The notes: generated by a model from the sequence alone, not told the origin. A stretch of DNA of 64,000 nucleotides from Candidatus Omnitrophota bacterium (GCA_049324575.1 JBMONI010000004.1:43960-107959), one strand, 5' to 3'. Shown: positions 6,272-62,217, counted from the stretch's first letter. Numbers and translations: made by a program.

Positions 6272-6424
6272 ATTCCCCTCTTTTCGTGTTCTTTGTGAAA
6301 AACAGAATCCACCGAAAAGTTACCCGTTTTTTTAGTGATTACAAGAAGCGGACACAAAAAAACCATGATTTTTCAGAAATTTTTTGAGTAGTCGTTAAAA
6401 AGGTTTGAAAAACTTTTTCGTCAA
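6272..6424 (-). promoter_or_regulatory. AT-rich intergenic region, putative promoter/5' UTR of the 1..6271 gene
   Basis: Marked drop in GC between the terminator hairpins and the ATG at 6271. No confident -35/-10 assignment. Confidence 0.25.
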
Positions 6425-36902: not shown

Positions 36903-36978
36903 TGGTGGACCCGACCGGGATCGAACCGGTGGCCTCCACAATGCGAATGTGGCGCTCTCCCAGCTGAGCTACGGGCCC
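36903..36978 (-). tRNA. tRNA-Ala (anticodon CGC)
   Basis: Reverse complement is GGGCCCGTAGCTCAGCTGGGAGAGCGCCACATTCGCATTGTGGAGGCCACCGGTTCGATCCCGGTCGGGTCCACCA. It has a 7-bp acceptor stem with the G3:U70 alanine identity pair, a D-loop with GG, anticodon loop TTCGCAT (CGC), T-loop TTCGATC and an encoded CCA. Confidence 0.9.
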
Positions 36979-48748: not shown

Positions 48749-48794
48749 CCACGGAAAACCCCGGGGGCTTTTTGCGGTCCGGATGGGAAAAAAA

Positions 48795-50060
48795 CTATTT
48801 CTTTGCACGCCCTTTTCCTTTCGATCGTTTTTTGTCCGCTTTCTTTTCGGGACCGGCGCCGGCAAAATCCCCCTCCGGCGCGATCAGACCGTTCTCATAA
48901 GCGCCCAGGATCGCCATGACCGCATGCTGGACATGATCCACGCGGACTTCATCCGCAGTGGCCGTGGCTCGAAAACCTCCCGCCATCAACGGCGCGGTCC
49001 CGGCGCCTTGCGGGATCTGCAGCTGAAGAACGACCTCCAATCCTTCCCGAACGAAATTCGCATAACAGACCGTGCGTTTTTCATCGTTGAGTGCCCGGGC
49101 CACTTCATACGCCCGGTTGATCCCTTCCACCAGCGAGGCGGCGGAAATACTTCTGAAGTTATAATTTTCGCAAGTATCCCCTCGCCCGTATTTAGACGTC
49201 AAGTAATCCGCCATTTCAAAAATAAATTCGGCATAACGGGGGTCCGGATCGATCCGGTACAATTTGGCATAGGCCTGGAGCTGCCAGGGAATGAAGTCGG
49301 AACTCGGTTGCATGCGCCAAAAGCCCCGGTAATAGGGAAAGGCTTTCTCAACGATCCTCTGGTACGCTTCACGGCCATACGTTTTTCGCATCTGCGCCAG
49401 CGCAAGCAAGGCCTGGCCCGGATAAAAACTCTGCGTTCGATCCGTTTTCGCGCCTTCGAGTTCGCCGGCAAACGACAGCGCCTGCCCTTCCGCGGCCCGC
49501 GCTTCCCCGGGAGCGGGGAAAAAGGACCTCAATTTCCCATGTGAGCTCTGCAGCGTTTGGATCCCTCGCGCCAGACCCTGGGCGATATCGGCATAGCGAG
49601 CGGGATCGAGTTCAAGCATGGCAAGGATCAGAAAAGCGGAATACCCCAGCTTAAGCTGCCCGGGAGTCATATTCAGATAGTAATATTGCCCCGGATAATC
49701 GAAAGCCAAATGATCGGAGAAAAAGTCGAGGCCTTTCCGCGCAAGCCGGAGCAGGCGGTCATCCTGAAGATGCTGAGCAAGCGACGCGAGAGCCCAGGCC
49801 GCCGCCGTTTCTCTCAAACGCCCCCCGGCCAGTCCGCACGAGGTCTTTTTCGTCTGGTTCGCATAATTGATGAATTCCTCGTTTTCGTTATTGAGGAACC
49901 ACTCTCCGGCCGCCGTCAAAGCCGATTCGAAACGGCCGGGAGTAGCCCGACTCATTGTCTTCTCTGAGATCGAACCCGCGATTGTGATCGCTCCCCCCAT
50001 CACTACGGCAAGAGATATCCCCATGGCCCCGACGAGATGCTGGATGCGGGATCGCCTCAT
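48795..50060 (-). CDS. Secreted protein resembling an (alpha/alpha)6-barrel, with Lys-rich C-terminal tail; paralog of the C-terminal domain of 46877..48748
   Basis: N-terminal signal-like MRRSRIQHLVGAMGISLAVVMGGAITIAG. Motifs parallel the neighbour: RETAAAWALASLAQ, SFYPGQALLALAQMRKTY, FIPWQLQAYAKLYR. Tail ...KKADKKRSKGKGRAKK. Fold assignment is tentative. Confidence 0.5.
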   Translation of the reverse strand: MRRSRIQHLVGAMGISLAVVMGGAITIAGSISEKTMSRATPGRFESALTAAGEWFLNNENEEFINYANQTKKTSCGLAGGRLRETAAAWALASLAQHLQDDRLLRLARKGLDFFSDHLAFDYPGQYYYLNMTPGQLKLGYSAFLILAMLELDPARYADIAQGLARGIQTLQSSHGKLRSFFPAPGEARAAEGQALSFAGELEGAKTDRTQSFYPGQALLALAQMRKTYGREAYQRIVEKAFPYYRGFWRMQPSSDFIPWQLQAYAKLYRIDPDPRYAEFIFEMADYLTSKYGRGDTCENYNFRSISAASLVEGINRAYEVARALNDEKRTVCYANFVREGLEVVLQLQIPQGAGTAPLMAGGFRATATADEVRVDHVQHAVMAILGAYENGLIAPEGDFAGAGPEKKADKKRSKGKGRAKK

Positions 50061-50070
50061 TAATGAACCC

Positions 50071-51465
50071 CTATTTCGAATGTCTGAACCCCGGACTCAA
50101 TATCCCGAGGCATGCTCCCATCAAAGCACACAATAATAACGACATATTCACATGGTCAAGCATAAAACTAATCGACGCATGCCCCAGGATCATCAATACC
50201 GGAACAAAAAAACCCATGCCAAAAAGAAACTGGAATCGACTTGGCGTCCTTTGGAGCATAAGAACAGACTCGATGAAAAATACTAGAATAAAAAGAAAAT
50301 AGAACCAAGCGCCGAGACCCTCTTCCGCGAGAATGGTCAAATAATGGTTCATGGCTTTATAATCCGCCATGTAAACGTTTTGGGGAGAGGTTTTTTTGAA
50401 AGTCTTTCGGTACGGATAATATCCTTTGGTGCCGACACCCCACACGGGGTTTTCTTTGAACATTTCTACCGCATAGTTCGCCCCCCGAATATTATGCGCG
50501 AACGATTGCGGCTCTTCCATCTCATCTTGGAGAGTGCTGACCTCTTGCAACGTTGCCTTAAAATCAATGTTCGTTTTCAAAAATAAAAATAATAAACAGG
50601 CTATTAAAACGCATGGGATGAAGATCCGTCTCGATCGATATTTTAAAATACAGCCCCCTATGAATGTTATTACTCCCATGAGAAAAAAAATGATGGTCCC
50701 ACGTGAATTGAACGCCAAAATCGCAATAAATGAACTACCAATGGTTAGGGCGGGTATTAAAATCTGAATCAGATGGATCTGCCCTTTAATCGGCCGCATC
50801 TTTTTTTCATCATCGAATTGCATGAAGGAATAAATAAAATAACTTATGGAAAGGAAGAAACCAACAGCGAGGACCTCTCCAATCCAGTTCGCGTGGAATC
50901 GATTAGAAATAAGGTATTTTTCAACCGCAGGATGGAAATAAAGCCAATCGGAAGCAAAGGGATTAAGCCGAATGTCATATGCAGAAAGACTTCCCCTCGT
51001 TATTAGTGAAGGCAAAGATAATGAGCATAAGAATAGAACCATCCCTATCGAAACCGAAACGATACCCACAGCTCGCTTTCGAGAAGCAGAAAACACATAA
51101 GCAAGCGCCATGGTTCCTAGACAGAAAAACCAGACGATCGGCTGCTGCGTAAAATTCTCAACAAGAACGATTTTTACGTCTTTGTCTGGCCCATTACTTG
51201 TCGCTGAAAGGAAATAGGCAAATCCCAATCTTATGATTTGGTAAATGCAGAATACACAAAACATCCCAAAACATAATGGGATTCTACGAAGGCTTAAACG
51301 CACATCGCTATTGGCGAAAACAAGAAACAAAACGAGGGTGGAAAAAACCAGTAAACAGCGCAACTCCGCTAACGCAAAAGAATCGTAACCTTTCGAAAGA
51401 AACAATGCTCCGAGCAAGGCTGAGAAAAAAAAATACGGAATTTGTCTCAGATGGCTATTGACCAC
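50071..51465 (-). CDS. O-antigen ligase-like (Wzy_C family) polytopic membrane protein, cassette 3 partner; visibly lower GC than its neighbours
   Basis: 10-12 hydrophobic helices. Wzy_C signature NHYLTILAEEGLGAWFYFLFILVFF in the C-terminal part. GTG start at 51465. Paralogous to 55286..56746 and 59610..61031. Confidence 0.7.
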   Translation of the reverse strand: MVNSHLRQIPYFFFSALLGALFLSKGYDSFALAELRCLLVFSTLVLFLVFANSDVRLSLRRIPLCFGMFCVFCIYQIIRLGFAYFLSATSNGPDKDVKIVLVENFTQQPIVWFFCLGTMALAYVFSASRKRAVGIVSVSIGMVLFLCSLSLPSLITRGSLSAYDIRLNPFASDWLYFHPAVEKYLISNRFHANWIGEVLAVGFFLSISYFIYSFMQFDDEKKMRPIKGQIHLIQILIPALTIGSSFIAILAFNSRGTIIFFLMGVITFIGGCILKYRSRRIFIPCVLIACLLFLFLKTNIDFKATLQEVSTLQDEMEEPQSFAHNIRGANYAVEMFKENPVWGVGTKGYYPYRKTFKKTSPQNVYMADYKAMNHYLTILAEEGLGAWFYFLFILVFFIESVLMLQRTPSRFQFLFGMGFFVPVLMILGHASISFMLDHVNMSLLLCALMGACLGILSPGFRHSK

Positions 51466-51507
51466 AAAAAAATCGTTTTTCCAGACGCCAATTCTTTGCG
51501 GACCGAA

Positions 51508-54500
51508 TCATTCCTGATCGACCCATTCGCAGCAATCACACCGGACCATTTTCTTCCCTTTGGGATCGGTCGGATCCAGTTCTTTCGCAGTTCCATTTGC
51601 TTCGCATATCTCCTCAGGCGCCGGTTCGTCTGGATCCTGCGGATTCTGTTCATCCGGATCAGGGCGGGTATCTCCGACAGACGAGCAAACTTTATCGCTT
51701 GAAATCCCACAAAGCTGAACCCCCTCGCCTTGGCAACATTTGTCTTGAGATTCATCATCCCCATCATCGGCGTCATCCCCCGGATCGGTGTCATCCCCAT
51801 CTTCATCGCATTTACACCCGCCGACCCCTTGGCATCCGCACATGGTTCCTTCTTCCATCGCCTTCGCAAGCTGTTGAGCCATCTGTTTATGAAGGTTTTC
51901 AACCGAATCATTGGGATCTGCATCTTGCCCTTCCATATGACACGGCGTTGTTACACATCTTTCCGGTTTCGCAGGTTCTTGTTTTATTTCTCCACCCTCA
52001 CCCTGGACCTTGCACATGCTCATCCCCGGACACGAGCAGTCTTCTCCCGGCGTATTGCAATTTTCGTCGCCCGGCTTACACCAGAATGCGCAGGGATTTT
52101 CGATCCCCCAGGCCATACAACGCGCGGTTTGGCGGTCATAAAGATGTTTCGTGCGTTCCGAATCGCTCTTCGACACGCATTCGCCGGTCCAATCACTGCC
52201 CCAGCTGCTCGATGGAGGTATCGGATCTCCGCCTTCAAGACAGCCTTCACCGATGAAACTCACATGACAGTAATTCCCCGCGGGACATTCGCTGTCCGCC
52301 GTGCAATATCCTCCGCCGCTTCCCGCTTTTTCGCAAACCGAATTTTGGCAGACATACCCCGCGGCACAATCCGTATCTTTCGCGCAGGAGGTCGATAATG
52401 AACAGGCACAATAGCCGGTCGTCAGATTGCATTTCCCGGTCCCTCCAGCAGAGGCACAGTCCGAATCCGCTTTGCACAGCGCGGTATTCTTTCGGCAATT
52501 TCCCTGCACACAACATTCGCCCGATCCACATGGAGCAGAAGCCGAACAAGCGTTGCCGAGCGGCTGACAAATCGGTTCCACCGCAGGACAGGTCGTTCCC
52601 TGGCAAGTCGGCTGAAGACAATATTCCCCGGGCTTGCATCGAACACTGCCGCACTGCTCCCCCGTCGTGTTTTCCTGACAGATACCGCCGTAAGTGCTTT
52701 TGACGCAAATAAGATTGCAAGACGCTGAAGAACCCGTCGTCGGACAGCAATTGTTATGCGAAGTGCACGGGGTGATCCCCGCCTGCCCAAGACAGTAGCC
52801 GAACGTATCCGCAGAGGCTTGTCTCTGGCAACTATACCCAAACGAGCAGTTCATGTCGTCCATACACCGCCCGCCGGTGGTGTCAAAAACGCAAGAACCC
52901 AAGGCATCAGATGGTTTGATCTTTTGACATTTTTCGTAATTTTTGCAATCAGCGGCCGTCATGCAAGTCCCGACAGGCTTGCAATCTCCGAGCCCCGCGC
53001 TGCTCTGGAAGCACACATTTCCCGCCATACAATGCGCCGTTTCACGGCATTTTCCCGAAGGAATATTTTCGCAAAGTCCGTAGTCGTCGGAAGGCGCCGT
53101 ACGTTTGCAATACCCATTTTCACCGCAAAGAGAATCATCCTGGCAGGCATTGGCCTTGTTTTGGCATACTCCAGCAGCCCCTTCGGCACCCGCCTGGATA
53201 CAGGATTCATAGGATCGGCACCAGCTGTCATCTTCGCAAGTCCCCGGCACACGGCAGCGGCCGACATTCTCCCGGCCGCTCTTGATGAAACATTCCTCGC
53301 CGGCCGAACAGTCCCCTGGAGTCTCGCATTGTCCCTCGGCCATCGGCGTGCAAAGCCCGAGATCCTTATCGATATCTTCATGGGCCAGGTATTGGCAATA
53401 TTCCCCGTCTTGACACGGGTCCGAAAACTGACAGGCGTTCGCGTTCGCGGAACTCACCTTACAGACCCCGAAACGCTCGTTCGAAGAACTCCGGACGCAT
53501 TCCCGTCCGCTTGGACAATCCGCATTGGTACCGCACTGGCCGGGCGCCGGCGTTCCGCAACGGCCGTAATCATCGGCAGCGCTGACCTTCATACAAACCG
53601 TCCCGGCCCCGCCGCAATCCGAATCGGAGCCGCAGCGCGCAGGATCCGTAATGCATCGCCCGTATTGATCGGCATTGCGGAATTTTTGACAGAGCTCACC
53701 ATTCGCGCAACCGTCCGCGCCCTGGATATCGTAGCGGCAGGATCGTTCCGGATCGATCGAGCACTGCTGAGCAATGCAAACCATGCTTTCGCCGCAGTCG
53801 GCGTTCTCCTGACACTCGACATTCACGCACCGCGCGTCATAGCAAAACTGGTTCGCTCCGCATTCGCTGTCGGAGCCGCAACGGTCATAACACCGTCCGT
53901 CATAGCAGGCCCGCGGCGCGTCCGAGGGGCAATCCGTCGTGTAGGTTCCATCCCCGAGGTCGGTTTCTTGACAAGGTTCGCTGCAACCCCAATCGTCCGA
54001 GCACTCCGTCCCAGGCCCACCGCAAATGCTGTCGATCTTGCAATAGCAAGTATGCGTGGATGAGTTACACGCATGACCGGCCGCCGCACAATCCGAATCG
54101 AACGAACAGCGGTTTGAACGGTCCCCGACCACACAAGCCCCCCCCGGCTCCGAAGGCGAAGACCTGAGGCAAAATTGATCGCTCGGACAATCCGTATGCG
54201 CCGCGCATTCGCGGTCCGCGCAGCGCCCGTAGGGATCGCCCGGGCTGTCCTGTTTGCAGATCTTGGTCGGACTGTTGCAGTCCGTATCCGCCGTGCAATC
54301 GCCGGAAGACTTCCCGCGACAGATCCCGTATGCCCCCCCGCTCTTGTTCTCGCAAATATCCCCCGGCTTGCAGTCCCCGTCCGTTTGACATTCGCACCGC
54401 CCGGCCTCGACCGTGCCGCCGCTCACCGGCCCATCGGAACAGACGGAATAATCCTTGCCGGGCTTCACGCGGCAAACTTGACAGCCGGCACAATCGGTAT

Positions 54501-55134
54501 TGGTTTGGCAGGTCTTGGAAGGATCCAGCTGGCATTTGCCCGTGCTCAGTTCACAGACTTCTTCCGGTTCGCATTCGCTGTCCGCGCGACATCCGTCGAT
54601 ACAACCGCCCTGAGGCGCTCCCGAGGTCGTCCTTTTACAGAACTTTCCGGCGGGACAGTCTTCGCTGCTTTGACAGCCCGAAAAACATTTTCCGTATTCG
54701 TCACCGACCGATTCCTTGAGACAATGCTGGCCTGACTCGCAATCTCCATGGGTCTCGCATTCACCGCTCGATTTTCCGCGGCACAAGCCGTAAGGATCCG
54801 CCGAATTGGCCTTAAAACAGCTGTCCCCTGATCTGCAGTGCTCATCTTCTTGGCATTCGCATCGCCCTTCGGGAACATCCGCGCCGCTCACCGGGCCATC
54901 TACACATTTTTTAGGACTTGCGGCCAAATCACATACCTGACAACCAGAACAATCATCTGAACGAGTGCATTGATCTCGATCTTCAGTAATGCATATCTTA
55001 AGACTGCCGGTCTGTTTGCAATATTGGCCTGAGGGGCAATCGGAATCGACGGCACAAAAGAGAGCGAACGCGGTGACGGGAAAGGATAAAAAGACAGTAG
55101 CGACAAGAACGAACTGTATTAACCGCTTATACAA
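51508..55134 (-). CDS. Secreted cysteine-rich repeat protein (1,208 aa) with acidic Asp/Glu/Pro-rich C-terminal region
   Basis: Signal peptide MYKRLIQFVLVATVFLSFPVTAFA (TTG start at 55134 with AGGAGG 8 nt upstream). It contains dozens of ~35-aa units with pattern C-x3-4-(D/S)-x-(D/E)-C-x2-G-x2-C-x6-12-(Y/F)G-x-C, e.g. CETHGDCESGQHCLKESVGDEYGKC. The tail is DEDGDDTDPGDDADDGDDE...PDPDEQNPQDPDEP. Confidence 0.75.
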   Translation of the reverse strand: MYKRLIQFVLVATVFLSFPVTAFALFCAVDSDCPSGQYCKQTGSLKICITEDRDQCTRSDDCSGCQVCDLAASPKKCVDGPVSGADVPEGRCECQEDEHCRSGDSCFKANSADPYGLCRGKSSGECETHGDCESGQHCLKESVGDEYGKCFSGCQSSEDCPAGKFCKRTTSGAPQGGCIDGCRADSECEPEEVCELSTGKCQLDPSKTCQTNTDCAGCQVCRVKPGKDYSVCSDGPVSGGTVEAGRCECQTDGDCKPGDICENKSGGAYGICRGKSSGDCTADTDCNSPTKICKQDSPGDPYGRCADRECAAHTDCPSDQFCLRSSPSEPGGACVVGDRSNRCSFDSDCAAAGHACNSSTHTCYCKIDSICGGPGTECSDDWGCSEPCQETDLGDGTYTTDCPSDAPRACYDGRCYDRCGSDSECGANQFCYDARCVNVECQENADCGESMVCIAQQCSIDPERSCRYDIQGADGCANGELCQKFRNADQYGRCITDPARCGSDSDCGGAGTVCMKVSAADDYGRCGTPAPGQCGTNADCPSGRECVRSSSNERFGVCKVSSANANACQFSDPCQDGEYCQYLAHEDIDKDLGLCTPMAEGQCETPGDCSAGEECFIKSGRENVGRCRVPGTCEDDSWCRSYESCIQAGAEGAAGVCQNKANACQDDSLCGENGYCKRTAPSDDYGLCENIPSGKCRETAHCMAGNVCFQSSAGLGDCKPVGTCMTAADCKNYEKCQKIKPSDALGSCVFDTTGGRCMDDMNCSFGYSCQRQASADTFGYCLGQAGITPCTSHNNCCPTTGSSASCNLICVKSTYGGICQENTTGEQCGSVRCKPGEYCLQPTCQGTTCPAVEPICQPLGNACSASAPCGSGECCVQGNCRKNTALCKADSDCASAGGTGKCNLTTGYCACSLSTSCAKDTDCAAGYVCQNSVCEKAGSGGGYCTADSECPAGNYCHVSFIGEGCLEGGDPIPPSSSWGSDWTGECVSKSDSERTKHLYDRQTARCMAWGIENPCAFWCKPGDENCNTPGEDCSCPGMSMCKVQGEGGEIKQEPAKPERCVTTPCHMEGQDADPNDSVENLHKQMAQQLAKAMEEGTMCGCQGVGGCKCDEDGDDTDPGDDADDGDDESQDKCCQGEGVQLCGISSDKVCSSVGDTRPDPDEQNPQDPDEPAPEEICEANGTAKELDPTDPKGKKMVRCDCCEWVDQE

Positions 55135-55285
55135 CTTCGACCCCTCCTTCCGGCTATTGCGATACTTCTTACAAATCTTTATTATCTTTTGTTAATACAA
55201 CAATAGCCGACAAATTTTCAAAAAGCAAGGCCTACTTGCAGAATTTTTATATAGCAAATTCTAGCAATTTTAAACTGTCCGGTTT
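55135..55285 (-). promoter_or_regulatory. AT-rich intergenic region with a strong Shine-Dalgarno sequence; putative internal promoter for cassette 3
   Basis: 151-bp low-GC spacer between the ligase-like stop (55286) and the Cys-rich start (55134). GGAAGGAGGGG precedes the TTG start. Confidence 0.3.
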
Positions 55286-56746
55286 TCAACTTGAATGACG
55301 AAATCCCGGTTTTAAAACTCCCAGGCAAACGCCCATTAATAAATACAAGAGCAGCGCCATGTTGAAATTTCCGAGCATTTGACTGATGGAAGCATGCGCG
55401 AGGATCATCATGACCGGGCAAAAGACCGAAAGTCCCGCCATGAATTGAAAGCGGCTTCCGGTCCGCACGAGTCCCCGGACCGCGTAAAAAACAAAGGTCA
55501 GCAAAAATCCATAATAGAGCCATGCCCCGAACCCCTCTTCGGCCCGGATCAAAAGGTAATGGTTCATCGGATGAGCCGCCGCCAAGGTCGGTTCCACACG
55601 CCCCCGGTCTACTTCCGTCACGACTTTCGGAAAGACTTCCTCATATCGCCCGGTGCCCACTCCCCACACCGGCGCTTTTTTTGCCATGGCCAACGCCGCT
55701 TTCGCCCCGAGGATATTCTGCTGAAGACTTTGGGGATCCCGCACTTCCCGGCCCAAGGTTCTCACTTCCTGGATAACGGCCGGGGATGAGAGCGCAAATC
55801 CCGCCAGGGCGATGGCCAGAAGTCCGAGCCCCCACAGGACTTTTCGGTAATGCCCGTATTTGAGGAGGAGCCCCGCCGCGAACAAGAATAGCGCGGCCCC
55901 GAAGAAAAGGATCGTCCCGCGGGAATAAAAAGCAAAGACCGCCAAGCCCGCGAAGGCGATCACAGCGAGCAGGCTGACCATCTGAAGCATATTGATCGAC
56001 ATCCGGTTGGCCGAACGGCGGCGGACGGATTCGATATCCATAAATGCATAAATCAATAATCCCAGCGCGACAAAAAAACCCACGGCGATCACATCCCCCG
56101 CCCAGTTCCAATGCGCAAAGCGTCCGAAGATCATTCGGCCCACCACCGGGAGTTCGCTTAAAAAAGAAAAATAGAAACTGTGGGCACTGTCCTTGAGATA
56201 ATCCTGCCCGCGAACGCTTGTGAGCCAGGGCAGGCAATTCACAAGGAGGAAGACCGTTCCATAGACCAGGGACCAGAGCAATGTCCGCACCTTGCTCCGG
56301 CGGGAGCAGAGGCCGTAGCTTATAAGGAAGAGAGCCAGGAAGAAGAACCACTCGGTGGATTGCCCGAAAACCGGCGACGCGCCCGCTTCGACGGCCTGAT
56401 AGTGTTCGTGGCTTGAATGCATAAGCCGGATCCCCTGATACAGGAGGAAAGCCCCGAAAACGGTTCCCGCAGGTGACAGGAGCCCCCGGAGAAGGTTTCG
56501 GTCGAGGAAAAAACCGATTGCCACGCCCCCCATAAGGAGGAGGGCTCCGATCTTCCTCAATTCCACCGTCGCGGCATAATCGTAGCCGACCGCAAACAAG
56601 ACGAGAACCGCATAGGCGCAAAAGAGGAAGAAAATCGCCTTCCGCATCACCGCCTGCGCGGCTGCAGCCAGAGCGCCCATCCGTCCCTGAACTCTCGGAG
56701 CGATCAGGATCGCGGCGTGATTTTGTTCCAGCGATGAGGTTAACAT
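55286..56746 (-). CDS. O-antigen ligase-like (Wzy_C family) polytopic membrane protein, cassette 2 partner; GC-rich
   Basis: Signature NHYLLIRAEEGFGAWLYYGFLLTFVFY and multiple TM helices. The most-upstream start overlaps the end of the 56740..59364 gene by 7 nt. The real start may be the internal MGALAAAAQ (near 56680). Confidence 0.7.
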   Translation of the reverse strand: MLTSSLEQNHAAILIAPRVQGRMGALAAAAQAVMRKAIFFLFCAYAVLVLFAVGYDYAATVELRKIGALLLMGGVAIGFFLDRNLLRGLLSPAGTVFGAFLLYQGIRLMHSSHEHYQAVEAGASPVFGQSTEWFFFLALFLISYGLCSRRSKVRTLLWSLVYGTVFLLVNCLPWLTSVRGQDYLKDSAHSFYFSFLSELPVVGRMIFGRFAHWNWAGDVIAVGFFVALGLLIYAFMDIESVRRRSANRMSINMLQMVSLLAVIAFAGLAVFAFYSRGTILFFGAALFLFAAGLLLKYGHYRKVLWGLGLLAIALAGFALSSPAVIQEVRTLGREVRDPQSLQQNILGAKAALAMAKKAPVWGVGTGRYEEVFPKVVTEVDRGRVEPTLAAAHPMNHYLLIRAEEGFGAWLYYGFLLTFVFYAVRGLVRTGSRFQFMAGLSVFCPVMMILAHASISQMLGNFNMALLLYLLMGVCLGVLKPGFRHSS

Positions 56747-59364
56747 GGCTTCTTCGCTTTCAGACGATAATTACATTCTTCGCAATAGTAATTACCATCG
56801 ACAACGCTGAACTTCCCCGTGCCATCGGCGACCATACAAACATCGATATCTTTTTCCTGTTGCGAGTCCCATTCATAATCAGGATATTCGCGATCCGGTG
56901 AATATTTACTTTCCGGCGCACAGCACTGCGAATGAAGCGTACGCGTCTTGGCGCAAACCCGGTCCGTGGGCGGAGCCCCATGAGGGATTTCCATTCCTCC
57001 GCAAACACGATCGCCCGCCCGGTAGGTCTTGATATTATCGATCGAGGACGGGCTCATGAGGGAGGCTGCACTGTCCGAGCACCACTGCCAGCTATTGGAG
57101 CTTTTTTTATAGCACGGTTTAGTACCCGTGATGCGTGTCCCCGACTTGGCCTGTGCGGTATAGGCGAAGTAATAACAGCCATCCCCGGCATAGCCGACAT
57201 CCCCATAACCCGCCGCACACGTAGGAAGCGGGTCATTATCATCACCGCGCGACACACAACTTCCTTCCCCGTCTCGGATCTGACACCGCATTCCCTTGGG
57301 GCAATCCGAACTGCGCCTGCACCCATTTCCATCATCATCGTCATCGTCGTCGTCACCTTTGCCGCCACCGCCGCCTCCTCCGCCGCCGCCGTCATCATCC
57401 CCGCCGTCATCATCCCCGCCGTCGTCATCCCCGCCGTCATCATCCCCGTCGTCATCATCCCCGCTGTCATCATCATCGCCTTCATCGGACGATTTGCATA
57501 CACCGCTGGCGGAGCCGCTTACAATATCGCATTTCATATTGCATGTTCCGTTTATGGTGATCGCGCAGCAATCTGCATCACTTTGACAACCCTCGGCCAT
57601 TTTGCACACGCCTTTTCCATCGCTGATCACACAAGTATAGAAACACAGGGACGGTCCCGTGCAACAATCGGCAGTCGAGCTACAGCCCGTATCGATCGTC
57701 TCACACACCCCTTTCCCGTTAGTGATCTTACAAGTTTTGTTGCATGGAACTTGTCCATTACAACAATCGGCCGCTGTCGCGCACCCCGTATCGATCGTCT
57801 TACAAACTCCTTTCCCGTTAGTGATCTCGCAAGTTTTGTTGCATGGAACTTGTCCATTACAACAATCGGCCGCCGTCGCGCACCCCGATGAGATGCTAAC
57901 GCAATACCCGGCCCGGTCGTCCGCGGTTTTGAATTCGCATTTTTGGCCCGTCGCACAATCCGTTTTGCTATAGCAGCGTCCTTCCATTTTATTCAAAACA
58001 CAACGATACATGATCTTAGTAGTTCCAGTGCTGATATCCGGTACCGTGATCTGCTCGCCCCCGATATCGCACATTTCATGGCTCTCGCAATCACCTCCGG
58101 ACTCACACAATTCTTTCTTCTCACAGGCCCCGCCGCCCTCAGGACAATACTGCCAGCTTGCCGGACATCCGTTCTCTTCCGAGCAAGGCCTCCCTGTGCA
58201 ATTCCCGTACTGATTCCCCGACAGTTTTTCGCACATGGCCGCACCCTGGCATTGGCTATCCGTACTGCAATCCCCATAGCTTCGCCCCTGACAAATCCCG
58301 AACTCCCCTCCGTTCTTGTTTTCGCAGACACCGCCGTTCTTGCAGTCCAAATCTCCTTGGCACTCGCATCGGCCACTGGTGACCCGGTTACCGCTTACGG
58401 GCCCATTCACGCAAATCGAATAATTTTTCCCTTCTTTGGGACGGCAAACCATGCATCCCGAGCAGTCCTCATTGCTATCGCAGGTTTTCCCGGGATCGAA
58501 TTCACAAAACCCGGTCGAGGTTTGGCAAACCTCTTCAGGCTCACAATCCGAGCTGCTCCGGCATCCGGATTCGCATTTCCCGTAACTCGCCCCCGGGTAG
58601 GGCGCTTTGCAGAACGTGCCCGCGGCGCAATCGTCATTGGACCCGCAGGTTGCCAAACAAACCCCGTAGCGATCTGAAAAATTCTGCTTATAGCATTGGC
58701 TGCCCGGCTGGCATTGCGAATCGCTTTCGCATCCACATTGGCCGCCGCTTCCCCCCGAAGGAGAATCCACGCAGGTCCCGTTACTGCAATATTGGCAGCC
58801 GGTTTGGCATTCCGCATTGGACCGGCATCCCGGCATGCACCCCCCTTTTGCGGCGTTCGGAGAATTCTTCTGGCAATATTCTCCGGCCGCGCATTGGTCA
58901 TGACTTTGGCACTGCGTCACACAGCTCCCGACCTCATCCCCCGCATTCGCCTTTTTGCAAACCGTCCCGCTCTCGCAGTCCGAATCAAGGAGGCATTCAC
59001 CGGTCGAAGGCCCGCGGCACACCCCGAGCGGCTCTCCCGGATCTCCCTTGATACAGACGTCCCCGGTTTTGCAATGTTCGGCCGATTCGCATTCGCAACG
59101 CCCATCTCCCGCGCCCGTCCCGCTGGTCGGCCCGGCCACACATTTTTTGATGCTTCCGACGAGACCGCAGACTTCGCAACCCGAGCAATCATTGTTGTTG
59201 TTGCATTCATTGGGTCTCACGAGACAAACCCCGAAGCCCGGTGTAAAAAGATGACAATATTTTTCCGGCGTGCATTCACTATCCGAGGTGCAGGCCCATA
59301 ATGCATCTTGGGCTAAAAAAGCCAGCAACAAAGCAAAACTAAATGGTATGAAGCGCCGGTTCAT
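56740..59364 (-). CDS. Secreted cysteine-rich repeat protein (874 aa from ATG) with a ~50-aa poly-Asp/Gly tract
   Basis: ATG 59364 (MNRRFIPFSFALLLAFLAQDALWA; GAGGTGG SD). The track's GTG at 59373 adds MEK. It has the same C-rich unit as 51508..55134. Three tandem ~33-aa units GCATAADCCNGQVPCNKTCEITNGKGVCKTIDT are present, the third diverged. The acidic run is DEGDDDDSGDDDDGDDDGGDDDGGDDDGGDDDGGGGGGGGGGKGDDDDDDDDG. Confidence 0.75.
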   Translation of the reverse strand: MNRRFIPFSFALLLAFLAQDALWACTSDSECTPEKYCHLFTPGFGVCLVRPNECNNNNDCSGCEVCGLVGSIKKCVAGPTSGTGAGDGRCECESAEHCKTGDVCIKGDPGEPLGVCRGPSTGECLLDSDCESGTVCKKANAGDEVGSCVTQCQSHDQCAAGEYCQKNSPNAAKGGCMPGCRSNAECQTGCQYCSNGTCVDSPSGGSGGQCGCESDSQCQPGSQCYKQNFSDRYGVCLATCGSNDDCAAGTFCKAPYPGASYGKCESGCRSSSDCEPEEVCQTSTGFCEFDPGKTCDSNEDCSGCMVCRPKEGKNYSICVNGPVSGNRVTSGRCECQGDLDCKNGGVCENKNGGEFGICQGRSYGDCSTDSQCQGAAMCEKLSGNQYGNCTGRPCSEENGCPASWQYCPEGGGACEKKELCESGGDCESHEMCDIGGEQITVPDISTGTTKIMYRCVLNKMEGRCYSKTDCATGQKCEFKTADDRAGYCVSISSGCATAADCCNGQVPCNKTCEITNGKGVCKTIDTGCATAADCCNGQVPCNKTCKITNGKGVCETIDTGCSSTADCCTGPSLCFYTCVISDGKGVCKMAEGCQSDADCCAITINGTCNMKCDIVSGSASGVCKSSDEGDDDDSGDDDDGDDDGGDDDGGDDDGGDDDGGGGGGGGGGKGDDDDDDDDGNGCRRSSDCPKGMRCQIRDGEGSCVSRGDDNDPLPTCAAGYGDVGYAGDGCYYFAYTAQAKSGTRITGTKPCYKKSSNSWQWCSDSAASLMSPSSIDNIKTYRAGDRVCGGMEIPHGAPPTDRVCAKTRTLHSQCCAPESKYSPDREYPDYEWDSQQEKDIDVCMVADGTGKFSVVDGNYYCEECNYRLKAKKPC
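57330..57490 (-). repeat. Low-complexity GTC/ATC-rich coding tract encoding poly-Asp/Gly
   Basis: The plus strand reads catcatcatcgtcatcgtcgtcgtc...gtcatcatccccgcc repeated. In frame this gives (DDDGG)n and G10. Confidence 0.7.
57600..57890 (-). repeat. Three tandem ~99-bp coding repeats (two near-identical, one diverged) in the 874-aa Cys-rich gene
   Basis: cccgtatcgatcgtct[c/t]acaaac...caacaatcggccgc[t/c]gtcgcgcacc occurs twice in succession and is preceded by a diverged copy. They encode GCATAADCCNGQVPCNKTC[E/K]ITNGKGVC[K/E]TIDT. Confidence 0.7.
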
Positions 59365-59373
59365 TTTTTCCAC

Positions 59374-59609
59374 CTCGGTTGAAGATTTTATATCTCATTC
59401 GATCCATTTTGATCATTTCCTTATTTGCGCTGTTCTAATATAAGAATTTGCATAAGTTTTGATAGAAATCTATTGAATTATGGCGAGAGGAAAAAAAGGC
59501 TATCCGGGAGGCAACAAAAGCCGTGGCCAGATCAAAGTCCCCCGAGGGGCCTAGGGAGCGCCCTTCAAAGTCTGCTTCGGCCGGAAGAAGCCGGTGCGAG
59601 AGATCCGTC
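59374..59609 (-). promoter_or_regulatory. Intergenic region between cassette 1 and cassette 2; putative promoter of the 874-aa Cys-rich gene
   Basis: ~235-bp spacer with lower GC near the start codon. No confident motif assignment. Confidence 0.25.
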
Positions 59610-61031
59610 TTAGCGGGTATGGCTGAACTTGGGATGGAGGATCCCGAGGCAGGCTCCCATGAAAGTGTAGACAAGGATGTTCATGTTGAAGTTCTCAAGG
59701 AGTGGATGGATCGTCGCGTGGCCGTGCACCATAACGAGCCAGGAAAAGATCGCTAATCCGATAATAAATTGATACCGGCTGGCCGCATGCAAAAGGCCGC
59801 TGATCACTTCCGCGAAAAACAGGATCAGAAAAAGATAATAGAGATAGGCGCCGACACCTTCTTCAGCCCATATCTGCAAATAATGATTCATGGCATAGTC
59901 TTCGGCCAAAGTCATTCGATGATCCGGTCGTAGTCCGGTTTTTTCTTGAATCAAGGGATATAAACGTAAATAGCCGTCGGTCCCGACACCCCAAACTGGA
60001 AATTCTCGGTGCATGGCTAAAGCGATCTTCCCCGCGTGTAAATTTTCACTAAAGCTCGTCGGGCTTTTGATTTCATTTTCCAGCGTTTGGACTTCCTGAA
60101 ATGTCGATTTGAAACTCCCGCTACTAAAGAAATATCCGACAACGAGCAATCCGGCCATCCCCGCAGCCAGCCAAACCCTGGATGCCTGAAGCTTCCACAA
60201 GAGCACGCTGACAAAAACAAGAACAGCCATAACAAACCAACTGATGCTCCCGCGCGAAAAGAAACCCAGGATCGAGAGCGTTCCAAGCCCCACCGCCAGC
60301 ATGGGGAAAAGGATTTCGAACAGATTAACCCGACTGCGGCTCGCCCTCCGGCTCCCTTCGCGATCGAATTGCACGAATGCATAAATAAATGAGGCCGCAC
60401 CCAGGAACACTCCGATCGCGACGAGATCCCCCATCAGGTTATGCCAGGCGAAGGTGCCGAGAAAATATTTCGAAATTAATGGGTGACAATACAGAATCGG
60501 GAAGAAAAAAATCTGAAGCCCAGGAATAACGTAGCCCCAGCTCCCGTCCTGAAATAATGACGGGAGGTGATTCGCTATGAGAAAAAGAACACTCCCGAGG
60601 GTGACGCTGACGAGAGCTTTAGTGGGACGGCGCGATGAAAAAAGAACATAGGAAATTGTCATCAGCGAAAAATAAAAAAACCAGTCTAAAGGCGCCTTGG
60701 AATAAAATTGAAAAGGCTCCCAAAAAAGAACACGATCATGCGGTTGTCCCTTCGCAAAGAAAAGAACTGCCCACAAAAATCGCAAAATCTGGAATAGCAG
60801 CAATGCAATAAAACAACAAAGCGCACTGCTAAGTGAGATGCCACGGCGGGGTTTTAAAACCCGAAAATTGACAACAAATAACACCAACAGAGCAAATGCC
60901 AACAGCATACGAAAATTCGCATGGTGTTCTTCGCCATGCTTGAAGGTGTGATTGTCGAATCCAAGCGCAAGGAACGCGATGGCGATAAAAGCACAGAACA
61001 GTACAAGATACCCCTTTGCAGAGCTGCGCAA
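59610..61031 (-). CDS. O-antigen ligase-like (Wzy_C family) polytopic membrane protein, cassette 1 partner; intermediate GC
   Basis: Signature NHYLQIWAEEGVGAYLYYLFLILFFA and multiple TM helices. TTG start at 61031 per the track (alternative internal ATG further in). Confidence 0.7.
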   Translation of the reverse strand: MRSSAKGYLVLFCAFIAIAFLALGFDNHTFKHGEEHHANFRMLLAFALLVLFVVNFRVLKPRRGISLSSALCCFIALLLFQILRFLWAVLFFAKGQPHDRVLFWEPFQFYSKAPLDWFFYFSLMTISYVLFSSRRPTKALVSVTLGSVLFLIANHLPSLFQDGSWGYVIPGLQIFFFPILYCHPLISKYFLGTFAWHNLMGDLVAIGVFLGAASFIYAFVQFDREGSRRASRSRVNLFEILFPMLAVGLGTLSILGFFSRGSISWFVMAVLVFVSVLLWKLQASRVWLAAGMAGLLVVGYFFSSGSFKSTFQEVQTLENEIKSPTSFSENLHAGKIALAMHREFPVWGVGTDGYLRLYPLIQEKTGLRPDHRMTLAEDYAMNHYLQIWAEEGVGAYLYYLFLILFFAEVISGLLHAASRYQFIIGLAIFSWLVMVHGHATIHPLLENFNMNILVYTFMGACLGILHPKFSHTR

Positions 61032-61107
61032 ATCATCCCCTTTCGCAATCAGGTGCCGATTAATTCCCTATCCTCACCTGCATGACCGTCGAGTTCCCTG
61101 CAATTTA

Positions 61108-61977
61108 CTACTCTCGTTTTGGGTCTTTTTGGTACTTGCAGCAAAATAGTGAATCCCTCGAATTGCCTTCCGTACAGTGCCCGGCCCCTACATAGACATA
61201 ATCTTTAGGCGGTGGGCACGAGCTGGGAAAGATCGAACCTTCGTCGCAAGTCGGAGTTCCGCCATTTTTGCTACACGGCTTTGTAACATCAATGCCACTT
61301 ATCGCGCCATCATTGCACACGATTTTTCGCCGCGCCGGAGCCGCGGGCTCATCGACTATACATTTCCAGGAGGGGTTATCATGATCTTGCCACGGACTGA
61401 CACACTCGGGCTCCCCCATGCTTGCCACCCCCCCATGTTTTTTACATTTTTCGTCCGCTTGTTCTTCATCACTAGGATTTCCTCCAGGAGGGTCCGTGGG
61501 ATCTGTCGGATCTGTTTTAGGATCACCACCCGGAGGAGTCTTCTTGTCCTTACAGCAATCCGACGGTAAAGCAGGCCCCGCGCTTGCGCCGGGACATTGA
61601 GGTGTTCCCGTGCGCTCCTGGTTCGCGCCACATCCATTCTGGGGACTGCCTCCACTGGGACAAGTCGCTTTCGCTTCTGTATAAATCCTGCCTTTTGCAT
61701 TGCATATGCAACCAGACTCCGCTTGGTTCGTACAGTATTCATCCTTTGCGGTATAACATTCCATGCCCTCACTACTCTGAGGAAGATTACTCCACGAATG
61801 AGCTCCCGTGCACTGCCTGGAAGGCGCACATACATGCTTATTTCCTCCACCTCCGCCGCCCCCTGCGCCTCCTCCCTTACCATCCTTAGCTGGCGCCGCG
61901 TATGTTTCACCCATCATGAGGCAAAAGGCGCAGAAAAAACACCCCACTATGCCCAAATACGTTCGTGAGATCTTCAT
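61108..61977 (-). CDS. Small secreted cysteine-rich protein (289 aa) with poly-Gly and Pro/Asp/Thr-rich low-complexity segments
   Basis: ATG 61977 with GGAGGAG SD. Signal peptide MKISRTYLGIVGCFFCAFCLMMGETYAAPA. Contains GGGAGGGGGGGN and PGGDPKTDPTDPTDPPGGNPSDEE and about 26 Cys. Confidence 0.7.
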   Translation of the reverse strand: MKISRTYLGIVGCFFCAFCLMMGETYAAPAKDGKGGGAGGGGGGGNKHVCAPSRQCTGAHSWSNLPQSSEGMECYTAKDEYCTNQAESGCICNAKGRIYTEAKATCPSGGSPQNGCGANQERTGTPQCPGASAGPALPSDCCKDKKTPPGGDPKTDPTDPTDPPGGNPSDEEQADEKCKKHGGVASMGEPECVSPWQDHDNPSWKCIVDEPAAPARRKIVCNDGAISGIDVTKPCSKNGGTPTCDEGSIFPSSCPPPKDYVYVGAGHCTEGNSRDSLFCCKYQKDPKRE

Positions 61978-62217
61978 CGTTTTCTCCTCCTGAGAGAATT
62001 TTTATAGCTTAAAAGAACAGAACTTTTTAAAAACATCGATGAGCGATACCTAGCATAAGTATACATGGCAGAAAGACTAATTTCAAATCGTTTAAAAGTA
62101 GTTCAATAGAGGGTGATTTTGAGCATTTTTCTCCTTTTTCTGATTAAAAGATCTTGATTTTTTTTAGGCGTCTAATTTTAAGTCCTGGGATTTGGAGGCT
62201 TCCCCTCTTCCAGAAGG

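What the first reader, a model, noticed from the sequence alone, without database searches (positions are those of the whole stretch)
50071..61977. Three tandem two-gene cassettes each pairing a Cys-rich repeat secreted protein with a Wzy_C/O-antigen-ligase-like membrane protein
Gene order on the minus strand is Cys-rich (289 aa), ligase-like, Cys-rich (874 aa), ligase-like, Cys-rich (1,208 aa), ligase-like. The ligase-like proteins carry the family signature H-N-x-Y-L-x-x-x-A-E-E-G-x-G-A-W. The Wzy_C family includes WaaL O-antigen ligases and also the PglL/PilO protein O-oligosaccharyltransferases. Repeated dedicated pairing with large secreted, low-complexity-rich proteins therefore suggests either cognate OTase-substrate pairs or a novel envelope function for these polytopic proteins. 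I am not aware of such a cassette being described.
Basis: partly seen in the sequence, partly recalled or inferred. Interest (0 to 1): 0.85.

Follow-up and report, generated by a model that had tools for sequence, protein, structure and literature searches.

The report
Paired Cys-rich proteins and WaaL-like enzymes
An uncultured Omnitrophota bacterium carries three back-to-back copies of a gene pair (a secreted, cysteine-packed protein followed by a membrane enzyme of the O-antigen-ligase fold), and the same pairing recurs across the phylum, so the enzyme probably attaches sugar chains to its neighbour, although this has not been tested.

Summary
On the minus strand, 50071-61977 encodes three two-gene units: a Cys-rich secreted protein (289, 877 and 1208 aa; 8-13% Cys) followed by a 12-TM Wzy_C protein (473, 486 and 464 aa).

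The enzymes belong to a discrete, so far unnamed subfamily:
- It has about 92 clusters at 50% identity, and every named host is Omnitrophota.
- It matches no curated WaaL, PglL or exosortase-associated model.

The pairing is not chance. In 23 of 27 testable related loci, a 7-15% Cys ORF sits directly upstream on the same strand. The median gap is 22 bp. All 26 Cys-rich ORFs found in these loci occupy that position. The partners are otherwise unrelated in sequence. In relatives the pair heads an exopolysaccharide export cluster (alpha/beta hydrolase, TPR protein, OM barrel, Wza-like and Wzc-like proteins). In this window it has instead been triplicated, and the three enzymes are monophyletic (100/100).

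Best reading (about 0.45): these are dedicated periplasmic glycan-to-protein ligases with their cognate substrates. They would be a non-pilin analogue of the TfpO, PglS and TfpM pilin pairs. Rivals are an EPS polymerase or ligase with a co-expressed envelope protein, or a true WaaL. This is a new variant of a known kind, and its function is untested.

The parts
61108..61977 (-). C1: 289-aa secreted Cys-rich protein (24 Cys). It has no 4-Cys repeat array, a Gly tract and a Pro/Asp/Thr-rich linker. It ends in ...CTEGNSRDSLFCCKYQKDPKRE.
   Evidence: ORF and translation. Composition and signal-like N-terminus. C-terminus. The FCCKY motif matches the partner C-terminal signature. No Pfam or NCBIfam hit.
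59610..61031 (-). L1: 473-aa polytopic membrane protein of the Omnitrophota Wzy_C subfamily.
   Evidence: Wzy_C E 8.7e-11, 42.3 bits. Alignment A1. Family HMM hit and clade with L2 and L3. NCBI annotates a 274-aa fragment as 'O-antigen ligase family protein'.
56740..59373 (-). C2: 877-aa secreted Cys-rich repeat protein (106 Cys). Its layout is an N-terminal array of C-x5-C-x5-C-x11-C repeats, four 33-aa six-Cys repeats, a poly-Asp/Gly tract and a roughly 190-aa tail ending ...YYCEECNYRLKAKKPC.
   Evidence: The N-terminal part is 37-43% identical to C3 (E 2e-56 to 2e-65).
55286..56746 (-). L2: 486-aa Wzy_C subfamily member. The profile alignment suggests the real start may be Met23, at 56680.
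   Evidence: Wzy_C E 3.2e-9, 37.2 bits.. Start estimate.
51508..55134 (-). C3: 1208-aa secreted Cys-rich repeat protein (156 Cys). It has about 29 four-Cys repeats, acidic low-complexity linkers, and ends ...ICEANGTAKELDPTDPKGKKMVRCDCCEWVDQE.
   Evidence: DUF7107 at 27 bits, with weak Dickkopf_N and TIGR04201 matches. Homology to C2. The Logan gene calls missed it.
50071..51465 (-). L3: 464-aa Wzy_C subfamily member, and the protein that was modelled. It has 12 TM helices and a periplasmic domain at residues 300-384.
50305..50349 (-). L3 motif NHYLTILAEEGLGAW (residues 373-387). It contains His374 and Glu381/Glu382 at the end of the periplasmic loop.
   Evidence: Translation. Across 70 family members the conservation is H 68/70, Y 70/70, E 67/70, E 63/70 and G 70/70.
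50698..50709 (-). L3 motif N-S-R-G (residues 253-256). Arg255 is invariant and lies at the periplasmic end of TM8.
   Evidence: Translation. R 70/70. hhalign places it opposite E. coli WaaL TQTR215AT, but that alignment is weak.
62058..62086 (-). Promoter-like site (TTGAAA-17-TATACT, 10 of 12 matches), about 80 bp upstream of C1.
   Evidence: This is a consensus match only. The count for the region (18) against the shuffles (10.7, sd 3.1) is modest.
55225..55239 (-). Terminator-like hairpin followed by a T-run, between the L2 stop and the C3 start.
   Evidence: The regional total is not above the shuffles, so this is weak evidence.
46877..50060 (-). T1 (48795-50060, 421 aa) and T2 (46877-48865, 662 aa). 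They follow L3 after a 10-bp gap and are probably co-transcribed with it. They share a paralogous domain of about 360 aa, and T2 has an N-terminal AMMECR1 domain. They are not part of the conserved system.
   Evidence: No homologues in the related loci.

Best explanation
Each cassette encodes a Sec-exported, disulfide-rich surface protein and, immediately downstream, a dedicated WaaL-fold (Wzy_C) enzyme.

Proposed mechanism. The enzyme's active site faces the periplasm. It takes an undecaprenyl-pyrophosphate-linked oligo- or polysaccharide and transfers it onto its neighbour, most likely onto Ser or Thr in the partner's C-terminal region or acidic Pro/Thr-rich linkers. The product is a glycoprotein or proteoglycan-like component of the cell surface. 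In most Omnitrophota the donor would come from the exopolysaccharide machinery encoded next to the pair. In this genome the pair was duplicated twice as a unit and then diverged, which gives three enzyme-substrate pairs.

Shown here:
- the gene anatomy
- the fold
- the periplasmic position of the conserved residues
- the conserved pairing
- co-duplication of enzyme and partner

Inferred, not shown:
- the glycan donor
- the partner as acceptor
- the acceptor site

For: 2. Active-site side. The invariant or near-invariant polar residues are N193, D197, R255, E308, E315, H374, E381/E382 and H429. By the model's helix order and the positive-inside rule, read from the sequence, they all sit on the periplasmic side. 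That is where a Sec-exported partner would be.

3. Pairing.
- 9 of 10 testable genome loci and 14 of 17 testable metagenome loci have a 6.8-14.8% Cys ORF directly upstream on the same strand.
- The median gap is 22 bp, and 19 of 24 gaps are at most 50 bp.
- All 26 Cys-rich ORFs in these loci are in that position.
- Every partner whose N-terminus is in the held DNA, about seven outside the window plus C1-C3, starts with a signal-like hydrophobic segment.

4. The partners are not homologous to each other, apart from C2 and C3. What is conserved is therefore the class of partner and its position, as expected if the enzyme acts on it.

5. C-terminal signature in the partners.
- 16 partners share a C-terminal domain of about 100 aa, and one more (L099) matches it at E 7e-4.
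- The motif [YWF]CCx[YWC] occurs in the last 110 aa of 12 of 27 partners and nowhere in their other 13,885 aa. Shuffles give a mean of 0.23.
- C1 carries FCCKY. C1 and C3 also match the longer Cys-bounded loop pattern.

6. Co-duplication.
- L1-L3 are monophyletic in 100 of 100 NJ bootstraps, and L2 and L3 pair in 65 of 100, matching the C2-C3 homology.
- The clade L027, L065 and L082 lacks a Cys-rich neighbour and has a different gene layout. Giant-protein genes lie beside the family gene in L027 and L065.

7. Precedent. All known PglL, PglS, TfpO and TfpM O-OTases carry a Wzy_C domain with an essential His. The pilin-specific ones are encoded immediately downstream of their substrate. Their sequons are disulfide-flanked loops or C-terminal tails (PMC9829042).
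Against: - There is no biochemical evidence of any kind.
- The family has no detectable sequence relationship to characterised OTases, and it lacks the PglL_A and Wzy_C_2 domains.
- WaaL, Wzy-type polymerases and OTases cannot be told apart by fold or by the shared His and Arg residues.
- In relatives the gene sits beside Wza-like, Wzc-like, TPR and OM-barrel export genes. A polymerase or polysaccharide ligase would fit that context equally well.
- The window partners C1-C3 do not score against the C-terminal domain HMM built from other partners.
- The short motif was defined after looking at the data.
- The stoichiometry varies. L011, L076 and L100 have two Cys-rich genes per enzyme, and L087 has two enzymes for one Cys-rich gene.
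- The alpha/beta hydrolase that accompanies the family in 25 loci has no role in this model, and it is missing from the window.
Confidence: 0.45

Rival explanations
1. The enzyme is the polymerase (Wzy-type) or terminal ligase of the exopolysaccharide or capsule pathway. The Cys-rich protein is a co-expressed envelope component, such as a scaffold, an anchor or a matrix protein that binds the polymer non-covalently. It would not be a substrate.
For: - In relatives the pair sits directly upstream of a TPR (PrsT-like) protein, an EpsL/BBP2-like OM barrel, a Poly_export/SLBB protein and a Wzz plus tyrosine-autokinase protein.
- Some Wzy polymerases carry Wzy_C domains (established knowledge).
- No other polymerase candidate was seen in the 8-14 kb loci.
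Against: - In the window the pair is triplicated with no polysaccharide export genes in the 64 kb. Three polymerases, each tied to its own Cys-rich gene, are hard to explain on this model.
- The short gaps, the Cys-rich ORFs occurring only at this position, and the co-duplication all point to coupling with the partner rather than with the export genes.
- Wzy polymerases are usually too variable to form a family that is 25-35% identical across a phylum (general knowledge, not tested here).
Confidence: 0.28
2. The enzymes are ordinary WaaL O-antigen ligases that join O-antigen to lipid A-core. The adjacency to Cys-rich genes would be an operon habit of this lineage with no mechanistic meaning.
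For: - The closest solved structure is WaaL.
- NCBI names the proteins 'O-antigen ligase family protein'.
- hhalign places the SRG arginine opposite E. coli WaaL R215 (a weak alignment).
Against: - There are three diverged copies in tandem.
- No LPS-core genes were found in the window or among the neighbours of related loci that were scanned.
- The profile finds no WaaL in the PDB. None of 70 members hits a curated NCBIfam ligase model.
- The family is small, about 92 clusters at 50% identity. The DNA-pattern scan of 185,579 species genomes recovered it in 13. This suggests a restricted distribution rather than a universal LPS enzyme. The pattern is expected to catch only about half of the members.
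Confidence: 0.1
3. The WaaL-fold protein has a different, undescribed role towards its partner. It might anchor the partner to a lipid or to the polymer through Cys or through the C-terminus. It might take part in a sorting pathway together with the CPBP (myxosortase-like) protease seen in some relatives. Or it might act as a non-enzymatic membrane receptor or export partner.
For: - The partner C-terminal signature centres on a vicinal Cys-Cys.
- A CPBP protease most similar to MrtS, MrtJ and myxosortase models lies two genes upstream of the partner in L047, L011 and L076.
- Cys-containing C-terminal sorting signals processed by CPBP proteases are known (10.1101/2023.06.07.544157).
- HTTM/SdpB-like genes occur in L052 and L082.
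Against: - The partners lack the tripartite signal of motif, TM helix and Arg cluster.
- The CPBP hit is far below its family cut-off, at 48.5 bits against 130.
- No CPBP or HTTM homologue is in the window.
- The catalytic-type His, Arg and Glu residues are conserved, which argues for an enzyme of the usual kind.
Confidence: 0.14

Closest known systems
Pilin-specific O-oligosaccharyltransferases TfpO/PilO, PglS and TfpM with their cognate pilins (PilA, ComP)
   Same: - Polytopic Wzy_C-domain enzyme with a conserved essential His.
- The gene lies immediately downstream of the gene for its single dedicated acceptor.
- The acceptor determinants lie in disulfide-flanked loops or at the C-terminus (PMC9829042).
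- Here the enzyme gene follows the partner at a median of 22 bp. Many partners carry a Cys-bounded C-terminal signature.
   Different: - The partners are not type IV pilins. They are 250-1300-aa Cys-rich repeat proteins.
- There is no detectable sequence similarity to these OTases.
- The phylum differs (Omnitrophota, not Pseudomonadota).
- The usual context is polysaccharide export genes rather than pilus genes.
- Activity is untested.
PglL general O-OTase (Neisseria, Acinetobacter, Burkholderia)
   Same: Wzy_C domain, a periplasmic active site and an Und-PP-glycan donor. All three are inferred here from the class of enzyme.
   Different: - PglL acts on many proteins and is not paired with one substrate gene.
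- The PglL_A and Wzy_C_2 domains are absent here.
WaaL O-antigen ligase (solved structure 7TPG/7TPJ)
   Different: - 10-12% identity, with no profile-level sequence match.
- Not in an LPS-core locus.
- Present in three copies.
- Coupled to a protein-coding partner.
Wzy_C-type 'probable O-glycosylation ligase' of exosortase A/PEP-CTERM exopolysaccharide loci (TIGR03097; name recalled from memory)
   Same: A Wzy_C-like gene embedded in an EPS locus with a PrsT-like TPR protein, an EpsL-like barrel, an export protein and a tyrosine kinase, alongside secreted proteins that have a special C-terminus. The related Omnitrophota loci have those neighbours.
   Different: - No NCBIfam hit for any of 70 members.
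- No exosortase was seen.
- The partners have no PEP-CTERM or other tripartite sorting signal.
Myxococcus TraA-type surface receptors (Cys-rich repeat stalk plus MYXO-CTERM, processed by the CPBP protease myxosortase)
   Same: - Secreted proteins with long Cys-rich repeat stalks. C3 has a weak TIGR04201 match, and other partners carry Myxo-type CGDG...CDDGN repeats.
- A CPBP protease lies nearby in three related loci.
- The partners are hypervariable.
   Different: - The partners have no MYXO-CTERM-like TM helix plus Arg cluster.
- No CPBP gene is in the window.
- TraA is not paired with a Wzy_C enzyme (PMC11980579 and 10.1101/2023.06.07.544157).

Membership tests
Wzy_C superfamily (PF04932; WaaL-type fold) | Match to the Pfam Wzy_C model above its gathering score | tested here: met
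   L1, L2 and L3 score 42.3, 37.2 and 49.4 bits against a cut-off of 31.7. 66 of 70 subfamily members match.
Wzy_C superfamily (PF04932; WaaL-type fold) | Twelve-TM architecture with a large periplasmic loop before TM10, structurally similar to WaaL | tested here: met
Wzy_C superfamily (PF04932; WaaL-type fold) | Conserved periplasmic His at the end of the large loop, and conserved Arg residues | tested here: met
   H374 is present in 68 of 70 members, R255 in 70 of 70 and H429 in 70 of 70. R255 aligns with E. coli WaaL R215 only in a weak hhalign match. Equivalence of H374 to the catalytic His is inferred from its position in the Pfam match.
WaaL (lipid A-core:O-antigen ligase) | Encoded in or near the LPS core (waa) gene cluster, usually single copy | tested here: not met
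   There are three tandem copies. The neighbours are Cys-rich proteins, T1/T2, SPOR, PilZ and patatin genes. Related loci carry EPS export genes, not core glycosyltransferases.
WaaL (lipid A-core:O-antigen ligase) | Sequence-level membership in curated WaaL families or similarity to solved WaaL | tested here: not met
   No NCBIfam hit. No PDB hit with the A1 or A2 profiles, even at E up to 10.
WaaL (lipid A-core:O-antigen ligase) | Transfers O-antigen to lipid A-core | not testable with these tools
   Needs LPS analysis of mutants or in vitro assays.
Pilin-specific O-OTases (TfpO/PilO, PglS, TfpM) | Wzy_C domain enzyme encoded immediately downstream of its cognate acceptor gene | tested here: met
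   23 of 27 testable loci have the partner directly upstream, with a median gap of 22 bp. The defining feature is taken from PMC9829042.
Pilin-specific O-OTases (TfpO/PilO, PglS, TfpM) | The acceptor is a type IV pilin or pilin-like protein | tested here: not met
   The partners have Sec-type signal-like N-termini and Cys-rich repeats. They have no pilin domain and no class III signal.
Pilin-specific O-OTases (TfpO/PilO, PglS, TfpM) | Sequon in a disulfide-flanked loop or at the extreme C-terminus | tested here: inconclusive
   A Cys-bounded loop followed by a CC signature lies near the partner C-termini. It is present in C1 and C3 and degenerate in C2. Whether it is an acceptor site is unknown.
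PglL general O-OTase | PglL_A (PF15864) and/or Wzy_C_2 (PF11846) accessory regions | tested here: not met
   Neither is listed for L1-L3 at E up to 10, although HMMER's filters drop most matches above about 0.1. Neither is found in any of 70 members at E up to 0.01.
PglL general O-OTase | En bloc transfer of Und-PP-linked glycan to Ser or Thr of proteins | not testable with these tools
   Needs glycoproteomics or a heterologous glycosylation assay.
Wzy O-antigen/EPS polymerase | Located within a Wzx/Wzy-dependent glycan assembly locus | tested here: inconclusive
   Relatives adjoin Wza-like and Wzc-like export genes. No Wzx or glycosyltransferase was seen in the held 8-14 kb. The window has no such genes.
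Exosortase A-associated O-glycosylation ligase (TIGR03097) | Match to the curated model and co-occurrence with exosortase and PEP-CTERM proteins | tested here: not met
   None of 70 members matches. The partners lack a C-terminal TM helix and Arg cluster.

The most novel reading that the evidence does not exclude
Omnitrophota possess a phylum-specific surface-glycoconjugate module. A dedicated WaaL-fold ligase covalently joins oligo- or polysaccharide to a hypervariable, disulfide-knotted stalk protein. This would be the first non-pilin dedicated O-OTase and substrate pair, with a new Cys-bounded C-terminal recognition element.

The partners would diversify by tandem duplication, as in this window, to serve as host- or prey-recognition or adhesion molecules of these ultra-small, probably epibiotic or predatory bacteria. 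Sister enzymes would serve some of the giant proteins.
Probability: 0.25. Interest if true: 0.8.

Novelty: new variant of a known kind. Interest (0 to 1): 0.6.

Why it matters
- Envelope biology. Omnitrophota are uncultured, ultra-small bacteria, and their surface biology is essentially unknown. A conserved enzyme-partner pair gives a concrete and testable handle on how their envelope is decorated.
- Scope of dedicated OTases. If the enzymes are protein O-OTases, the known repertoire of dedicated OTases extends beyond pilins. It could also supply new enzyme and sequon pairs for bioconjugate engineering.
- Annotation. Gene callers miss the Cys-rich genes. C3 was replaced by opposite-strand ORFs in one public gene call. 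The enzymes are named 'O-antigen ligase' by default, which is probably misleading.

Tried and rejected
- Word-indexed protein searches returned almost nothing: only L3 itself and an L1 fragment, only two proteins with the 70-member profile, and nothing for the C3 repeat region.
- The first genome scan, with automatically chosen peptide patterns, found nothing. A hand-made DNA pattern for H-Y-x3-L-A-E-E-G-x-G solved this.
- The first AF2 model, built from 3 sequences, was useless at pLDDT 41.
- The afdb50 fold library was unavailable.
- PDB sequence searches with the A1 and A2 profiles found nothing relevant.
- Hypothesis that the 640-aa genes downstream in relatives are T2 homologues: rejected. 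They are TPR proteins.
- Hypothesis that T1 and T2 are LanC-like cyclases acting on the Cys-rich proteins: not supported. There is only a weak LanM hit (E 6.5e-4), no PDB match, and no homologues in related loci.
- Hypothesis that the partners carry a PEP-CTERM- or MYXO-CTERM-type sorting signal: rejected, because there is no C-terminal TM helix or Arg cluster.
- Hypothesis that C1 corresponds to the tail domains of C2 and C3: no detectable similarity.
- The HMM of the shared partner C-terminal domain does not detect C1-C3.
- No recent DNA repeats link the cassettes.
- Promoter and terminator scans are not above chance.
Full report
**Observation**

- C1, 61108-61977, 289 aa
- L1, 59610-61031, 473 aa
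- C2, 56740-59373, 877 aa from GTG, or 874 aa from the first ATG
- L2, 55286-56746, 486 aa
- C3, 51508-55134, 1208 aa
- L3, 50071-51465, 464 aa

C1, C2 and C3 contain 24, 106 and 156 cysteines (8.3, 12.1 and 12.9%). Each begins with a hydrophobic signal-like segment. L1-L3 have 11 to 14 hydropathy peaks.

C2 and C3 are built mainly of repeats of about 28 residues with the spacing C-x5-C-x5-C-x11-C. They also have six-Cys 33-residue repeats, acidic low-complexity linkers and non-repetitive tails. C3 passes DUF7107 and has weak Dickkopf_N and TIGR04201 matches. C1 and C2 match nothing.

L1-L3 each pass the Pfam Wzy_C gathering score. They share M-N-H-Y-L-x-I-x-A-E-E-G-x-G-A-[W/Y].

The organism is an uncultured Candidatus Omnitrophota bacterium. 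L3 is NCBI MFZ5801707.1, on a 161,963-bp contig.

**The enzymes form a discrete subfamily**

A full HMMER scan of 1.84 billion representatives with the three paralogues gave 92 proteins at E <= 1e-30. Most of these are full-length, at 430-500 aa. There is then a sharp fall to about 1e-12, where generic Wzy_C proteins begin.

Seventy members align with these conserved positions, in L3 numbering:
- invariant: N193, G202, R255, G343, G345, Y375, G383, S409, H429
- near-invariant: D197, E308, T311, E315, S321, N325, H374, E381, E382

Matches to other resources:
- 66 of 70 members match Wzy_C. None matches PglL_A or Wzy_C_2.
- None matches any curated NCBIfam ligase or polymerase family.
- Neither profile finds any solved structure by sequence.

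From the helix order of the model and the clusters of Arg and Lys in alternate loops, read directly from the sequence, all the conserved polar residues lie on the periplasmic side. A weak hhalign match places the S-R-G arginine opposite R215 of E. coli WaaL.

**The pairing is conserved**

A DNA pattern for H-Y-x3-L-A-E-E-G-x-G recovered 13 family loci from one-genome-per-species bacteria and archaea and 20 more from metagenomes. Every named record is Omnitrophota.

Where upstream DNA is present:
- A 6.8-14.8% Cys ORF lies directly upstream on the same strand in 9 of 10 genome loci and 14 of 17 metagenome loci.
- With starts placed by the family profile, the gap from partner stop to enzyme start has a median of 22 bp, and is at most 50 bp in 19 of 24 cases.
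- Of 192 non-overlapping ORFs of at least 120 aa in these loci and the window, 26 have at least 6% Cys. All 26 are the first or second gene upstream of a family gene.

The partners are 250-1300 aa and use several different Cys-repeat types. Those with complete N-termini have signal-like segments. They show no BLAST similarity to each other, apart from C2 and C3. The C3 repeat region has no detectable relatives in the 5.8-billion-protein index.

**A possible shared C-terminal element in the partners**

Sixteen partners share a C-terminal domain of about 100 residues. An HMM built from 14 of them also detects L099, which was not used to build it (E 7e-4). It does not detect C1-C3.

The core of this domain is a Cys-bounded loop of 9-26 residues, mostly 14-20, often opening with C-P-x-G and followed by [YWF]-C-C-x-[YWC]. 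That five-residue motif occurs in the last 110 residues of 12 of 27 partners and nowhere in their other 13,885 residues. Shuffles give 0.23 on average and never more than 3. The motif was defined after inspecting the data.

In the window:
- C1 ends ...CTEGNSRDSLFCCKYQKDPKRE.
- C3 ends ...CEANGTAKELDPTDPKGKKMVRCDCCEWVDQE.
- C2 ends ...CMVADGTGKFSVVDGNYYCEECNY..., which is degenerate.

**Genomic context**

In relatives the usual gene order is as follows:
1. In some loci, a CPBP intramembrane protease and/or an HTTM/SdpB-like protein
2. An unknown gene of about 370 aa
3. The Cys-rich partner
4. The Wzy_C enzyme
5. An alpha/beta hydrolase (Peptidase_S9/DLH type)
6. An unknown gene of about 170 aa
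7. A TPR protein (PrsT-like)
8. An OM barrel (EpsL/BBP2-like)
9. A Poly_export/SLBB protein
10. A Wzz plus tyrosine-autokinase protein

The hydrolase is next to the family gene in 25 loci. That set of export genes is typical of Wza/Wzc-type and PEP-CTERM-type exopolysaccharide loci.

The window has none of these neighbours. The array is followed by T1 and T2, and it is flanked by SPOR-domain genes.

A separate clade of the family (L027, L065, L082) lacks a Cys-rich neighbour. In L027 and L065 the family gene lies next to giant ORFs whose N-termini resemble the two giant ORFs of this window.

**Origin of the triplication**

L1-L3 form a clade in 100 of 100 NJ bootstraps. L2 and L3 pair in 65 of 100, in line with the 37-43% identity between the repeat arrays of C2 and C3. 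The two-gene unit was therefore duplicated within this lineage and has since diverged to 34-36% identity in the enzymes. No DNA-level repeats remain.

**Interpretation**

All characterised Wzy_C enzymes move an undecaprenyl-pyrophosphate-linked glycan, at the periplasmic face, onto an acceptor. The acceptor is lipid A-core for WaaL, another lipid-linked unit for some Wzy enzymes, or Ser/Thr of a protein for PglL, PglS, TfpO and TfpM. The pilin-specific OTases are encoded immediately downstream of their single substrate, and they recognise disulfide-flanked loops or C-terminal tails (PMC9829042).

The following features fit a dedicated glycan-to-protein ligase with its cognate substrate best (confidence about 0.45):
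- conserved, tightly spaced pairing
- Cys-rich ORFs found only at that position
- a periplasmic active site facing a Sec-exported partner
- co-duplication of enzyme and partner
- different neighbours for different enzyme clades

The polysaccharide-export context in relatives suggests the donor. It equally allows the main rival (0.28), in which the enzyme is an EPS polymerase or ligase and the Cys-rich protein is a co-expressed envelope component.

A plain WaaL is unlikely (0.10). The copy number, the context, the lack of sequence membership and the apparently restricted distribution all count against it.

A different role tied to the Cys-Cys signature and the occasional CPBP protease remains possible (0.14). 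The partners, however, lack the tripartite sorting signals such proteases are proposed to process.

**Novelty**

Full-text searches found no description of this pairing:
- Omnitrophota with O-antigen ligase, and Omnitrophota with giant genes
- two Omnitrophota genome papers
- Wzy_C with cysteine-rich

The principle of a substrate gene followed by a dedicated Wzy_C OTase gene is known for pilins. I therefore rate this a new variant of a known kind, in a phylum where nothing of the sort has been reported. Its function is still untested.

Noticed in passing
window 6515-36499 (-) and 2-6319 (-): There are two giant ORFs. One is 9994 aa. The other is at least 2106 aa and runs off the window start. 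Their N-terminal ~500 residues resemble giant ORFs that lie next to family genes in L065 (which has a NUDIX domain) and L027, and, two genes further on, in L100. tRNA-Ala(CGC) at 36903-36978 lies just upstream, and PilZ and YajQ genes are nearby. This matches what has been reported for Omnitrophota giant-gene neighbourhoods (10.1101/2023.11.21.568195).
   Followed up: partly
window 46877-50060 (-): T1 (421 aa, N-terminal membrane anchor) and T2 (662 aa, with an AMMECR1 domain at residues 228-295) share a paralogous domain of about 360 aa (32% identity). The domain has no Pfam or PDB assignment. The only matches are weak ones to LanM C-terminal, GH88 and Pec_lyase toroid models. T1 starts 10 bp after L3. 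Related loci have no homologues.
   Followed up: partly
window 51508-55134 (C3); L001 2092-5319: One public gene call (Logan) does not contain C3. It calls opposite-strand ORFs of 179 and 435 aa and a 142-aa same-strand fragment instead. The exact C2 and C3 sequences are absent from the 15-billion-protein collection. Cys-rich repeat genes of this kind are probably under-annotated.
   Followed up: partly
window 62398-63084 (-) and 44917-45843 (-): SPOR-domain genes lie on both sides of the block that holds the cassette array, T1/T2 and an acetyltransferase gene.
   Followed up: no
window 63047-63817 (-): A 256-aa ORF matches only the C-terminal third of the glycoside hydrolase family 1 model (positions 284-449 of 453). 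It may be a truncated gene, or one with a frameshift or mis-set start.
   Followed up: no
window 50001-52000: GC content drops to 0.446 over L3, against about 0.55-0.58 in the flanks. It is also lower (0.50) over L1 and C1. The many Phe, Ile and Leu codons of a membrane protein may explain part of this.
   Followed up: no
L047 7021-7890, L011 1153-2031, L076 6359-7276; L052 1820-3292, L082 2713-4107: In related loci a CPBP intramembrane protease lies two genes upstream of the Cys-rich gene. Its best NCBIfam similarity is to MrtS and myxosortase-type models, but it scores far below their cut-offs. An HTTM/SdpB-like membrane protein occurs in two loci. Neither has a homologue in the window.
   Followed up: partly
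related loci, e.g. L087 4602-5330, L045 2794-3555, L065 11597-12379: A 230-300-aa alpha/beta hydrolase (Peptidase_S9/DLH/PHB-esterase-like) lies next to the family gene in 25 loci, including those without a Cys-rich partner. It is the most constant neighbour, yet it is absent from this window. Its role is unexplained.
   Followed up: partly
window 57330-57500 approx. (C2 residues ~630-684): C2 contains a tract of about 55 residues made almost entirely of Asp and Gly (DDDD-GDDD repeats and a G10 run). C1 and C3 have Pro/Asp/Thr-rich acidic linkers. These may be flexible spacers or sites of modification.
   Followed up: no
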